Positions 6,001 through 9,000 of a stretch of DNA of 50,702 nucleotides are shown here, piece after piece. Within the stretch, counting starts at the first letter, position 1. The number at the start of each line of letters is the position of its first letter. This DNA comes from a virus. Made by a program: the position numbers. The stretch is from the UHGV virus genome UHGV-0140686; one strand, given 5' to 3'.

Positions 6001-9000
6001 CTGAGACATAGAAATTCCTTATTAACTGATGAGCGAAGTGGTATCAGTGAATTTGTTGGTGCGGATCACTGAGCCGCTTTAAGCTTTCCATCCACCGTGC
6101 CGGTGATGCCGAACAGCTGACCCTGATCTTCCTGCAGGATGGTGAGCTTGCCGCCTTTGTTGACCCACATAGGTGTTTCGGTGGTGTCCTCTTCGGACGC
6201 TTTGCCGCGTGGGGTAGGGGTGCTGTAATTCAGGCGATGCTTAATCTTGACGCGCTTCTCTTCAACGGAGTTGCCCATACGCTCAAAATCAAAGGTGAGG
6301 ACTACCTTGCCTTTATTGCCGTTGTTCAGAACGCCGAGCGCGGTGGTATTGAGAGCCGCCGCAATCTTATTCATGAACACGCCGGCATCGAGCTCGCCCA
6401 GGAAATCGGGCACGACTGTCATGCGATCATTACTCATGGTTTTTTACCCTCATGAAAGGCGGCTGCAACCGCCGGAATTTTCTCCATACACAACACAGAA
6501 GAGCATCTGCGGTTAGCAGCCGCCCGGGTGGATTGGGTTATGAGCCCGTCGCCCGGTGATGCTCTTTTGTCTTGTGTAAAAAGGGCGGTTACCCATCAGA
6601 ACGTTATCCTCTTCCTCCTTTGGGTAGTGGAAAACTGGATAACCGCCAAGACTACACACAGCACAGTTAACTAGGTTGTGGCGGTGGTGCCTCCACCTGC
6701 CGGGTTAAGCCATAACCGGAGGCGTACACTGCCCAGAAACGCATTCATTGAACGGTTTGGCTCGCTGGGTGCGCATAGCCGCAATTACCACAACGAAGAG
6801 GGCACTGCCGGTGTCCGAATCGAACGGACCTTTTCCCTGCCCATCACCAGATATCGAACTATCCTGGCGTCTGGAATCGAACCAGACTCTGTGCCTTGCT
6901 CGTCAGAGCCCTCATCGTTGTGCGCTGTGGTGGCGGGAGTCGAACCCGCATAACGTCCGGCCGGACCGCATGAGATAACCTGTGTTGCGAACATTGGTTA
7001 GTGCTCAACTCCCCATACGAGGGGCGCTCTATCCATTTGAGCTACACCACAACGGTAAGAGCACTGCCGCCACCCCTTGCGGGATAACCCGTCTGTCTGC
7101 CTGGCGGTAGGGCGTTTCCTGGCATCTTCAGTGCTCTTTCCTGTTGTGTCCCGAACGAACTCTTCCCGGGTGTCACACCTTTTCGCCGCGCTGGTGGGGC
7201 GCACGTCGTGCCTGAAACACTTAGCTTGCACATTTCCGGTTGTCCTGTGAGCGCATGGATAAAGGGAACTCTCAGGCCGCTGACGCTGCATGTGCCATAC
7301 AACGGTTGCGAATATTGCCGTTCACAACTGGAAGCGCACTCCTTCAGTGACAAACCAGTCCCCACGACCGATGGAAGATGGAATGCGCTTTCATGTTGGG
7401 TACGATTCATCTACCCCGGTCCGGCGGCGCCACCTCGCCGGGGCAGATGCAAAGGACCGTTACGCGATCATTCGGCTTGTTGGTATGGCCGGAAGTATCA
7501 AGTCCCGACATCGCGGATTCTGCTTCTCCGCCCCGATTTCACCCCCGCTATTGTTTAGCGCGCAAACCGAGAAAATCGCCTTCAACGCTGTCGGCTTTCG
7601 CCATGTTCGTTCAGGTATCTTCGGGCGGGGTGCTAAGGTGGTGATGAGCCCTTGTCCTTAACACTCCTACTGGTTTTCGGCATTCCTGGCTTGGGTATCG
7701 CCACCAGTTGTAGGAATTTTACTATGAGTTGCGGTTAATCAGGCCGCACCTCTGTTACCCCTCCCGAAGACACCTGCCACTTTATGTGCCTGCTTTTCAC
7801 CACATCAGGCGAGGTGGATCCTGGTTATTCCCCAACAACAAGGATTCGGTTAATCTGGATATCCCCAACAACGAAGAGGTGTTGCTATGAGTGTTATTAG
7901 CGAAGAATTTTTCCAGAAAATTCTTAATAATCTTTCCGAACTACACGGTATAGCAGTGTTTGGTTCAGTTACTGAACCCGGCTATTCCCAGGTCAAAAAT
8001 CGTGCTTCACTCGTATTTGCACTTGAAGTCCTACTTGAGCGACATCGTGAAAAACACGGAACCTTATGGAGCCCGTTACCCGGAAAACTCGCTTTGTTGC
8101 ACTTGATCCTTCAAAAGTACAAATGGCCATTATCTGAAATAAAGGCTTTGACCCTGCAGGAGTCCGTATTCCTCCTTCAGGAAGAATTAAAATTTGAAAA
8201 CCTTCCGGATCTGGCTCAACGTGTTCTCAAAAATTATTTAGCTGACCGAGCTGAACACTACTTCGCTGAAATACGAGAGGAAGAGTGGGATCCAGATCTG
8301 TATCTCACAATTCCAAAGCCGCAGCGATGGTGAGTTCGTCAATGAGTTGATCGACCACTTCGATTGACTGCTTAAGAGCTTCTCTTTCGGCGATTGCGGT
8401 TTTAAGCCGATGTGATGCACTAATTTTCCGTTCCATCCAGGAGATGACCTCTTCCTCGGTGCTGCTAGGAGCAATGATTTTTGGTTCAGTTGCCTTCATA
8501 AGGCCTCCATTCAGTTGGTTAACGTGTTGGGGCATCCAGATTGTTAAAGAGCTAAGCGTCCTACGGGGCGCTTTTTTCATACCTGCGAATCATCCCGGCC
8601 TTCGTATGCCCCGGGCGGCTACTTCGTGGGCGTCCTGCCTGTTCGCTGTTGATGGATTAATAATACAGATAAAACTGTTAATTCGTCAACAGTCAAAACT
8701 GTATTGAGTGGGGGTGTTTACTTGAAAAACTGTAATTTATTGTTTTTTATGAAACTAAAGACGTAAAAAAACCGGCGCTAGCCGGTTCATGTGAGGAAGG
8801 ATTTACCTTTTTCGCCTGTAAATTCTATGTTCGACCATTACGCCGATAATTTTCAACGGGCATTCAGAGCTATTGATGGTGGGGTAGTCGTCATTAAGGG
8901 GGACCAGTTCATATTGCTGGCGGCCTGAAATATCGGTAAATGTAGGACGGTACTTTTTAAAAGTTGCCTCATTATCACCATTTTTAGCAACAACAAACTC

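What the first reader, a model, noticed from the sequence alone, without database searches (positions are those of the whole stretch)
7887..8333. Convergent ORF of unknown family at the rex/sieB position
This 148-aa ORF is on the opposite strand to the pL transcript, has its own SD and a dedicated intrinsic terminator (8556..8577) that stops before OL/cI. It is lower in GC than its surroundings. In lambdoid phages this slot holds lysogen-expressed exclusion or abortive-infection genes; I do not recognise the protein family.
Basis: partly seen in the sequence, partly recalled or inferred. Interest (0 to 1): 0.65.

Follow-up and report, generated by a model that had tools for sequence, protein, structure and literature searches.

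The report
Lysogen-type accessory gene, ECs1072 family
The ORF is a real, conserved prophage gene of a catalogued but uncharacterised family (ECs1072), carried as a self-contained cassette pointing against the early-left operon; a relative in Salmonella prophage ST64B is known to be switched on in lysogens, but what the protein does is still untested.

Summary
ORF 7887..8333 (+, 148 aa) has a GAGG Shine-Dalgarno, is 42.7% GC and converges on a pL-like promoter (8689..8660, minus). A plus-strand intrinsic terminator lies at 8554..8579.

The family is not unknown. The ORF scores 148 bits (cut-off 70) on NCBIfam NF033230, "ECs1072 family phage-associated protein", and E 1e-69 on PHROG 5286. Both are of unknown function.

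It is under purifying selection, soluble and all-helical, with no Pfam, PADLOC, PDB-sequence or significant fold match.

In relatives the gene sits in two places, always antisense to a lytic operon: downstream of pL, or between Q and holin.

The same upstream block and terminator flank a different cargo gene in one relative. A close relative lacks the cassette. It is therefore a swappable moron.

The ST64B member is STMMW_20121. Published RNA-seq shows it is transcribed in lysogens from its own start site.

The exclusion or abortive-infection role remains a guess.

The 1.1-kb non-coding insert upstream is separable from the gene. It contains a conserved tRNA-like RNA that may be the more interesting object.

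The parts
7782..7886 (+). Conserved non-coding block upstream of the ORF. It holds a candidate weak promoter (TTTTCA-17-GATCCT, 7794..7822), a 16-nt duplication of the SD region (7829-7844 and 7862-7877), and the SD GAGG at 7876..7879.
   Evidence: The first 92 nt of the block (window 7782-7873) are 94.6% identical to SfIV, although the two proteins are only 33% identical. The core GCCTG..TTCACCAC.TCAGGC..GGTGG(T)ATC(T/C)TGG is present in nearly all pL-type loci. In most loci it reads TTCACC-16/17-TGnTATCTT, an extended -10. In the window a 1-nt deletion weakens it. The same block precedes a different cargo gene in L062. Promoter function is inferred, not shown.
7887..8333 (+). ECs1072-family gene: 148 aa, 17.3 kDa, pI 5.75, soluble, all-alpha.
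   Evidence: NF033230 148.1 bits against cut-off 70; PHROG 5286 E 1.1e-69. (AF2 pLDDT 88.9, pTM 0.85). (no hydrophobic segment). (purifying selection).
8305..8498 (-). Convergent 64-aa YdfC-family gene, the first gene of the pL transcript. It overlaps the 3' end of the ORF by 29 nt.
   Evidence: PHROG 1744, E 6.7e-26. Phage homologues are annotated ydfC or YdfC family. A GGAGG SD precedes the ATG at 8498. A convergent small minus-strand ORF overlaps the 3' end in most pL-type loci. YdfC homologues also occur in 19 phage records that lack the ECs1072 gene.
8554..8579 (+). Intrinsic terminator that closes the plus-strand unit before OL/pL.
   Evidence: The hairpin AAGCGTCC-loop-GGGCGCTT plus a T-run is conserved in SfIV, L019, L030 and L049 with different loops. 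In L062 it follows the alternative cargo gene after about 35 nt. It lies inside the segment 7634-8584 that L067 lacks.
8660..8689 (-). pL-like promoter, given as context. The ORF is transcribed towards it.
   Evidence: TTGACG-18-TATTAT, 10 of 12 matches. It is flanked by ACAG-N6-CTGT operator-like palindromes (sequence) and sits next to the S24 repressor gene 8803..9435.

Best explanation
The ORF is a genuine protein-coding gene of the ECs1072 family. It is carried as an autonomous moron cassette: a conserved upstream block, the gene, and an intrinsic terminator. The cassette is inserted antisense into the start of the early-left (pL) operon of a lambdoid prophage of the SfIV / ST64B / YfdP-YfdQ type.

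It is most likely transcribed from its own promoter while the repressor keeps pL off. It is most likely silenced by convergent pL transcription after induction.

The product is a small, soluble, mildly acidic, all-helical cytoplasmic protein. No catalytic residues are conserved across the wider family, so it most likely acts by binding another macromolecule.

My best guess for the benefit is protection of the lysogen against other phages (exclusion or abortive infection), acting in the cytoplasm and not at the membrane.

Shown: the gene is real, its family membership, the cassette architecture, the cargo swapping, and lysogen expression of a homologue. Inferred: expression of this particular copy, the binding mode of action, and the anti-phage role.
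For: Family and coding:
- NF033230 148 bits against cut-off 70; PHROG 5286.
- pN 0.26-0.32 against pS of about 0.8.
- 116 representative clusters, almost all single-domain proteins of about 150 aa or shorter.

Context:
- In loci L004-L012 the gene is on the strand opposite to YfdP/YfdQ, a small YdfC-like gene and the repressor.
- In 29 of 33 IMG/VR loci a repressor, cro or CP76 homologue lies within about 3 kb, nearly always on the downstream side.
- In ST64B and in Klebsiella phages the gene sits between Q and holin, again antisense. In the Klebsiella phage locus L014 a promoter-like site and a terminator lie right next to it.

Cassette:
- L067 lacks window 7634-8584.
- L062 has the same upstream block and terminator around an LprI-like gene.

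Expression:
- STMMW_20121 (435 nt) matches the unannotated ST64B ORF in L013 (3281..3715) exactly, both in size and in its spacing to holin, sb50 and the Q-like gene.
- That ORF scores 167.5 bits on NF033230.
- It is reported as transcribed in almost all conditions from its own start site, antisense to lytic genes, at 60-270 TPM against 0.3-33 for holin (PMC7067206).
- ECs1072 itself was detected in uninduced O157 Sakai cultures (PMC2241611).

Protein:
- pI 5.75 and no membrane segment.
- In distant members H53/R54/H72 are not conserved. Only W134 is invariant, and L64 and G66 nearly so.
Against: - No functional test exists for any member.
- No PADLOC model matches.
- The candidate promoter in this window is weak, 7 of 12 matches with no extended -10. 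The consensus scan found none.
- Lysogen expression is shown only for a homologue that BLAST aligns at 32% identity over about 70% of the query. That homologue sits at the other genomic position and has a different upstream region.
- The slot also holds a cargo with no obvious anti-phage role (the LprI-like gene in L062), so position alone does not imply defence.
Confidence: 0.4

Rival explanations
1. The protein is a lysogen-expressed regulator or host-modulating factor, not a defence gene. One example would be a helix-turn-helix-like DNA binder that tunes prophage induction, replication or host genes.
For: - 'DnaA C-terminal' phage proteins recur among the BFVD hits, none of them significant.
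- Owen et al. call STMMW_20121 'accessory or regulatory'.
- No defence model matches.
Against:
- No Pfam HTH family is hit in 66 members.
- The helix that would be the recognition helix (QESVFLLQEEL) is acidic and hydrophobic, and the protein is acidic overall.
- The gene occurs at two unrelated genome positions, so it is not tied to one promoter region.
Confidence: 0.3
2. The main role lies in the transcript, not the protein. Convergent transcription from this unit, ending at 8579, gives an RNA antisense to the whole YdfC-like gene. That RNA would damp leaky pL expression and stabilise lysogeny.
For: - The 3' ends overlap in most pL-type loci.
- The terminator lies beyond the YdfC-like gene, so the 220-nt 3' UTR is fully antisense to it.
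- In both genome contexts the gene faces a strong lytic promoter.
Against: - The protein sequence is under clear purifying selection and is conserved across Enterobacterales.
- In L062 the cassette carries another gene and has no YdfC-like gene.
- In L014 the terminator follows the stop codon by 33 nt.
Confidence: 0.12
3. It is an early or lytic-cycle gene, or a decaying hitch-hiker with no function in the lysogen.
For: No strong promoter is found in this window. The function is unknown.
Against: - The antisense orientation to pL and to the late operon makes lytic expression unlikely.
- The homologue is expressed in lysogens while lytic genes are silent.
- The reading frame is intact and under purifying selection.
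- The SfIV-type allele is intact in 416 of 5426 complete E. coli genomes.
Confidence: 0.08

Closest known systems
ECs1072 family phage-associated protein (NCBIfam NF033230; PHROG 5286). Members include SfIV gp36 and STMMW_20121 of prophage ST64B.
   Same: - Full-length HMM matches above the curated cut-off.
- Same size.
- Same antisense placement next to a lytic promoter.
- SfIV shares the upstream block and the terminator.
   Different: - Only 33% identical to SfIV gp36 across the alignment, and 32% to the ST64B member over the BLAST-aligned part.
- This allele is absent from 5426 E. coli genomes.
- ST64B and the Klebsiella phages carry the gene between Q and holin, not at pL.
- The family has no assigned function.
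SieB of P22, lambda and Rac (superinfection exclusion / abortive infection)
   Same: SieB is also an accessory gene located within the early-left operon region (P22: PMC8022706). From memory, it is transcribed independently in the lysogen and oriented against pL.
   Different: - No sequence or Pfam relationship.
- SieB is, from memory, a membrane protein. This protein has no hydrophobic segment.
- No phenotype is known here.
BstA of prophage BTP1 (abortive infection gene downstream of the repressor)
   Same: Both are single genes next to the immunity region that are highly transcribed in lysogens. Both were flagged in the same transcriptomic study (PMC7067206).
   Different: - BstA is co-oriented with the repressor locus. 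According to that paper it differs from STMMW_20121, which has its own promoter.
- It is a different, larger protein.
- No PADLOC hit for the window ORF.
Moron elements of lambdoid phages (promoter-gene-terminator units such as HK97 gp15, lambda bor and lom)
   Same: - Own terminator and a candidate own promoter.
- Present or absent between close relatives, with swappable cargo.
- GC content that deviates from the flanking sequence.
   Different: Promoter activity has not been shown for this copy. The cargo function is unknown.
DnaA domain IV (helix-turn-helix DNA-binding fold)
   Different: The match is below a convincing level. hhalign probability is 1.4%, there is no Bac_DnaA_C Pfam hit, and the DnaA signature residues are absent.

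Membership tests
ECs1072 family (NCBIfam NF033230) | Whole-protein HMM score at or above the curated cut-off of 70 bits, over the full model length | tested here: met
   148.1 bits, residues 6-142 on model positions 4-140 of 142. SfIV, ST64B and Klebsiella members score 158-168 bits.
PHROG 5286 | Significant full-length profile match | tested here: met
   E 1.1e-69, residues 1-144 on a 144-position profile.
Moron (autonomous accessory transcription unit in a phage genome) | Present in some close relatives and absent in others, at the same site | tested here: met
   L067 is collinear at 93-96% on both sides but has 412 nt of other DNA in place of 7634-8584. L062 has a different gene between the same flanks.
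Moron (autonomous accessory transcription unit in a phage genome) | Own terminator | tested here: met
   8554..8579 (+). It is conserved and travels with the cassette.
Moron (autonomous accessory transcription unit in a phage genome) | Own promoter, active in the lysogen | tested here: inconclusive
   Only a weak candidate at 7794..7822. Relatives have TTCACC-16/17-TGnTATCTT at the same place. An own start site is shown experimentally only for the ST64B homologue (PMC7067206).
SieB superinfection exclusion protein | Sequence membership (Pfam SieB) and membrane-spanning segments | tested here: not met
   No Pfam hit at E up to 1 other than a chance match to NMB1110-like_C. The maximum Kyte-Doolittle 19-residue value is 0.85.
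RexA/RexB | Two-gene unit co-transcribed with the repressor; Pfam RexA/RexB | tested here: not met
   This is a single gene on the opposite strand to the repressor, with no Pfam hit.
Known anti-phage defence systems (PADLOC-DB 2.0) | Match to any defence protein model | tested here: not met
   No hit at E up to 1 for the ORF or its three neighbours.
DnaA domain IV / Bac_DnaA_C | Pfam or profile match, and a significant fold match | tested here: not met
HEPN toxins | Conserved R-x4-6-H motif in a four-helix fold | tested here: not met
   Foldseek probability is 0.15 or lower. No such motif is present, and H53/R54/H72 are not conserved in distant members.
Superinfection exclusion / abortive infection (functional class) | Reduced plating or productive infection of other phages on cells that express the gene | not testable with these tools
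   Needs plaque assays. No published test was found.

The most novel reading that the evidence does not exclude
ECs1072-family proteins could be a new single-gene, cytoplasmic anti-phage (exclusion or abortive-infection) system of Enterobacterales prophages. They would be expressed only in the lysogenic state because they are wired antisense to pL or to the late operon. One allele alone is present in about 8% of complete E. coli genomes.
Probability: 0.3. Interest if true: 0.6.

Novelty: new member of a known kind. Interest (0 to 1): 0.3.

Why it matters
The family is common in prophages of Escherichia, Shigella, Salmonella, Klebsiella, Serratia, Yersinia and Erwinia. One allele alone is found in 422 of 5426 complete E. 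coli genomes.

The family is consistently placed antisense to one of the main lytic operons (pL or the late operon), and one member is shown to be on in lysogens. No member has a known function.

Assigning a function, whether defence, regulation of induction or host modulation, would annotate thousands of genomes. The cassette found here (upstream block, cargo, terminator) also marks a cargo-swapping site that could be mined for other lysogen-expressed genes.

As a discovery in itself the finding is ordinary. It is a typical moron of a named family.

Tried and rejected
Searches that found nothing:
- Pfam, PADLOC and PDB sequence searches, with the single protein and with a 66-member profile.
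- The DnaA domain IV lead was tested by hhalign and rejected as a family assignment.
- HEPN was considered after weak Foldseek hits. I rejected it because no Rx4-6H motif is present or conserved.
- Literature searches for ECs1072, STMMW_20121, the PHROG and NCBIfam ids and SfIV gp36 found no functional study.

Ideas tested and dropped:
- An obligatory two-gene system with the convergent YdfC-like gene. YdfC homologues occur in 19 phage records without the ORF, and the cassette in L062 has no YdfC-like gene.
- A functional unit made of the ORF plus 6440..7880. The 1.1-kb insert 6651-7784 is missing in SfIV, L004 and L006. Its pieces occur in prophages without the gene.
- A coding reading of the conserved upstream block. 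An indel breaks the frame between loci.
- A pseudoknot reading of the same block (GCCTG/CAGGC interleaved with CACC/GGTG). The block varies too little to test it.
- A second copy of the family in the window. There is none.

Technical failures:
- The broad alignment was too divergent for a locus search.
- The window allele has no DNA match in E. coli genomes.
- P0035 and P0141 among the profile hits are translations of tandem repeats, not relatives.

Full report
**Observation**

The window has an ATG ORF at 7887..8333 on the plus strand, 148 aa. GAGG lies at 7876..7879, 7 nt before the start. All close homologues begin MSVI(S/N), which fixes the start codon.

The immunity region lies to the right:
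- an HTH plus Peptidase_S24 repressor gene at 8803..9435 (minus), and a Cro-like gene at 9533..9763;
- a promoter-like site TTGACG-18-TATTAT on the minus strand at 8689..8660, among ACAG-N6-CTGT palindromes.

The ORF is therefore convergent with the early-left (pL) transcript.

A plus-strand terminator (8 pairs, loop 4) is at 8554..8573, followed by a T-run that extends to 8579.

The ORF is 42.7% GC. The gap on its left is 55.1% and the window as a whole is 50.8%. The repressor gene is equally low at 43.1%.

It overlaps the ORF's last 29 nt and lies between the stop codon and the terminator.

**What the gene is**

The protein is a full-length member of NCBIfam NF033230, "ECs1072 family phage-associated protein" (148.1 bits, cut-off 70). 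It also matches PHROG 5286 (E 1.1e-69). Both families have no known function.

It has no hit in Pfam, PADLOC or PDB sequences. A 66-member profile also found nothing.

Evidence that it is a real gene:
- The word-indexed search found 27 relatives at 49-60% identity in Enterobacterales, plus one 99%-identical copy.
- The exhaustive profile search found 116 representative clusters, almost all of them single-domain proteins of about 150 aa or shorter. Two long hits are translated tandem repeats, not relatives.
- Between homologues, synonymous sites are saturated (pS about 0.8) while pN is 0.26-0.32. The reading frame is under purifying selection.

The protein:
- 17.3 kDa, pI 5.75, no hydrophobic segment.
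- AlphaFold2 gives a confident all-helical model (pLDDT 88.9, pTM 0.85).
- Across the wider family only W134 is invariant, with L64 and G66 nearly so. The histidines and arginine that are conserved among close relatives are not kept. This argues for a binding protein, not an enzyme.

**Context in relatives**

In loci L004-L012 the gene is on the strand opposite to YfdP/YfdQ on one side and to a small gene plus the repressor on the other. In 29 of 33 IMG/VR loci a repressor, cro or CP76 homologue lies within about 3 kb, nearly always on the downstream side.

The small convergent gene belongs to the YdfC family. It overlaps the 3' end of the ORF in most loci. It also occurs in 19 phage records without the ECs1072 gene.

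More distant members score 158-168 bits on NF033230. In ST64B and in Klebsiella phages they sit between the Q antiterminator and the holin. They are again antisense to the lytic transcript. In the Klebsiella phage locus L014 a promoter-like site lies about 95 nt upstream and a terminator 33 nt downstream.

The family is thus found at two classical accessory-gene positions, always facing a strong lytic promoter.

**The cassette**

A block of about 60 nt upstream of the start codon is conserved in nearly all pL-type loci, even where the proteins have diverged to 33% identity.
- In most loci the block reads TTCACC-16/17-TGnTATCTT, an extended -10 promoter ending about 30-35 nt before the ATG.
- In the window and in SfIV-type loci a 1-nt deletion leaves a weaker TTTTCA-17-GATCCT at 7794..7822.
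- A 16-nt duplication of the SD region also lengthens the leader.

Two relatives show that the cassette is mobile:
- L067 has a repressor 99% identical to the window's. It is collinear at 93-96% on both sides but has 412 nt of other DNA in place of window 7634-8584.
- L062 has the same upstream block and the identical terminator hairpin. Between them lies a 171-aa secreted LprI-like protein (Pfam LprI 20.9 bits, just under the cut-off of 22). The terminator follows its stop codon after about 35 nt.

This is the signature of a moron: a promoter-cargo-terminator unit with exchangeable cargo.

**Expression evidence**

Owen et al. 2020 (PMC7067206) report that STMMW_20121 of prophage ST64B is transcribed in almost all conditions in the lysogen. 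Transcription comes from its own start site and is antisense to the lytic genes. They propose an accessory or regulatory role.

Their table gives STMMW_20121 as 2090066..2090500 (435 nt). Expression is 60-270 TPM in 16 of 17 conditions, against 0.3-33 TPM for the adjacent holin.

The sizes and spacings of holin, STMMW_20121, STMMW_20131 (360 nt, 71-nt overlap) and STMMW_20141 (624 nt) match exactly the ST64B locus L013. There the corresponding genes are sb51, an unannotated plus-strand ORF at 3281..3715, sb50 and sb49. That ORF scores 167.5 bits on NF033230 and hhalign probability 99.3% against the family alignment.

One family member is therefore shown to be lysogen-expressed from its own promoter.

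ECs1072 itself appears among genes detected in uninduced O157 Sakai cultures, changing 2.1-fold at the transition to stationary phase (PMC2241611).

**Mechanism**

Shown:
- the gene is real and belongs to the ECs1072 family;
- it sits in an autonomous cassette with swappable cargo;
- it is antisense to lytic promoters;
- a homologue is expressed in lysogens.

Inferred:
- this copy is transcribed from 7794..7822 in the lysogen and ends at 8579;
- after induction, pL transcription runs over it and shuts it off;
- the protein acts by binding.

The specific benefit is unknown. I rank the possibilities as follows:
1. A cytoplasmic anti-phage role. Genes at this site in P22 (sieB) and next to the repressor in BTP1 (bstA) are exclusion or abortive-infection genes. 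From memory, sieB of lambda and Rac is similar.
2. A regulatory or host-modulating role. This rests on the weak HTH-like fold signal and on the LprI-like cargo in the same slot, which is not obviously anti-phage.
3. A mainly antisense-RNA role.
4. A lytic-cycle role or no function.

**Relation to 6440..7880**

The gap between YfdP and the ORF is mosaic. The flanks 6438-6650 and 7782-7886 are shared with short-gap loci. The segment 6651-7784 is an insert that is absent in SfIV, L004 and L006. Pieces of it occur in prophages with no ECs1072 gene. The ORF and the insert are independent modules.

**Novelty**

The family is already named and annotated by PGAP. The SfIV-type allele is present in 422 of 5426 complete E. 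coli genomes. The window allele is absent from E. coli. Identical copies occur in two IMG/VR contigs.

This is a new member of a known, uncharacterised family in a known kind of arrangement. Interest is modest. The open question is the function of the family.

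Noticed in passing
window about 6890..7069, minus strand (Rfam tRNA match 6925..7051): A conserved tRNA-like structured RNA lies on the pL-operon strand.
- It has a closing stem of about 22 bp, a D-arm, a short hairpin with a variable 6-nt loop (so no conserved anticodon), a long extra arm, a further hairpin and a T-arm.
- Rfam tRNA scores 39.8 bits, with a 66-nt insert. ARAGORN misses it.
- 12 IMG/VR contigs carry it, always between the repressor gene and YfdP. None of them has an ECs1072 gene.
- On 9 distinct copies, 99.2% of cells pair, against 35-47% for slid controls. Five pairs show compensatory changes, though from only about two lineages.
- It is not a described Rfam family. 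It may be a processed leader RNA, and it may be more interesting than the ORF.
   Followed up: partly
window 6789..6922, minus strand: A second structured module sits directly downstream of the tRNA-like RNA. A 22-nt inverted repeat (6789-6810 / 6901-6922, 86% complementary) encloses two hairpins with T-loop sequences (GGTTCGATTCC at 6876-6892 and GTTCGATTCG at 6822-6838). The module is 97% identical in an E. coli prophage (L016) and is also present in Klebsiella phage Kp4866-6.
   Followed up: partly
window 6787..6810 and 7046..7069: Two 24-nt direct repeats (83% identical, 259 nt apart) coincide with the ends of a 235-nt segment, 6811-7045. That segment is present in the window but absent from L009, L019 and L020, which carry the same or a 99%-identical ORF. 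This is a recent insertion, or a deletion between the repeats.
   Followed up: partly
window 6583..6660, minus strand: A DicF-like element. It gives a full-length but sub-threshold match to Rfam DicF (16.2 bits, gathering score 48), with a 29-nt expansion of the loop. It ends in GGCGG...CCGCCC plus a T-run. The block is conserved in SfIV and in L004/L005. The 6401-6700 region has fold z-scores of -3 to -5 on both strands. Its position after a ydfC-like gene mirrors, from memory, ydfC-dicF in the Qin prophage. It also contains a 27-codon ORF with a strong SD (AAGGAGGAAG) ending at 6513.
   Followed up: partly
window 7612..7631 and 7757..7776: A 20-nt inverted repeat (90% complementary) encloses 125 nt. 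The 7601-7800 window has fold z-scores of -3.9 (plus strand) and -4.8 (minus strand). The left boundary of the segment missing in L067 (7634) falls just inside it.
   Followed up: no
window 6438..7886 as a whole; loci L016, L017, L018, L067: Prophages of this type have 0.7-1.8 kb of unannotated, ORF-poor, GC-rich DNA between pL and the first annotated early-left gene. It is built from shuffled modules. Pieces of the window's version match unannotated DNA in 1213 of 5426 complete E. coli genomes and in Klebsiella phages. Owen et al. mention an ncRNA, STnc1310, that was induced together with the two genes downstream of the ST64B repressor. It may be encoded in the equivalent region.
   Followed up: partly
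L013 (ST64B, NC_004313) 3281..3715, plus strand of the locus: The ST64B member of the ECs1072 family is not annotated in the phage record. Only sb50, on the opposite strand, is annotated there, and it overlaps the ORF's 3' end by 71 nt. The ORF is annotated as STMMW_20121 in strain D23580.
   Followed up: yes
L062 4973..5488 (minus strand of the locus): A different cargo gene sits in the same cassette: a 171-aa protein with a signal-peptide-like N-terminus and a near-threshold LprI (lysozyme inhibitor) match. It lies between the same upstream block and the same terminator.
   Followed up: partly
window 21532..21607 and 22545..22731, plus strand: A tRNA-Thr (TGT) and the sRNA STnc100 (72 bits), about 940 nt apart. 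In Klebsiella phage ST974-OXA48phi18.2 the ECs1072-family gene lies between these same two RNA genes. The window has no second family copy there.
   Followed up: partly
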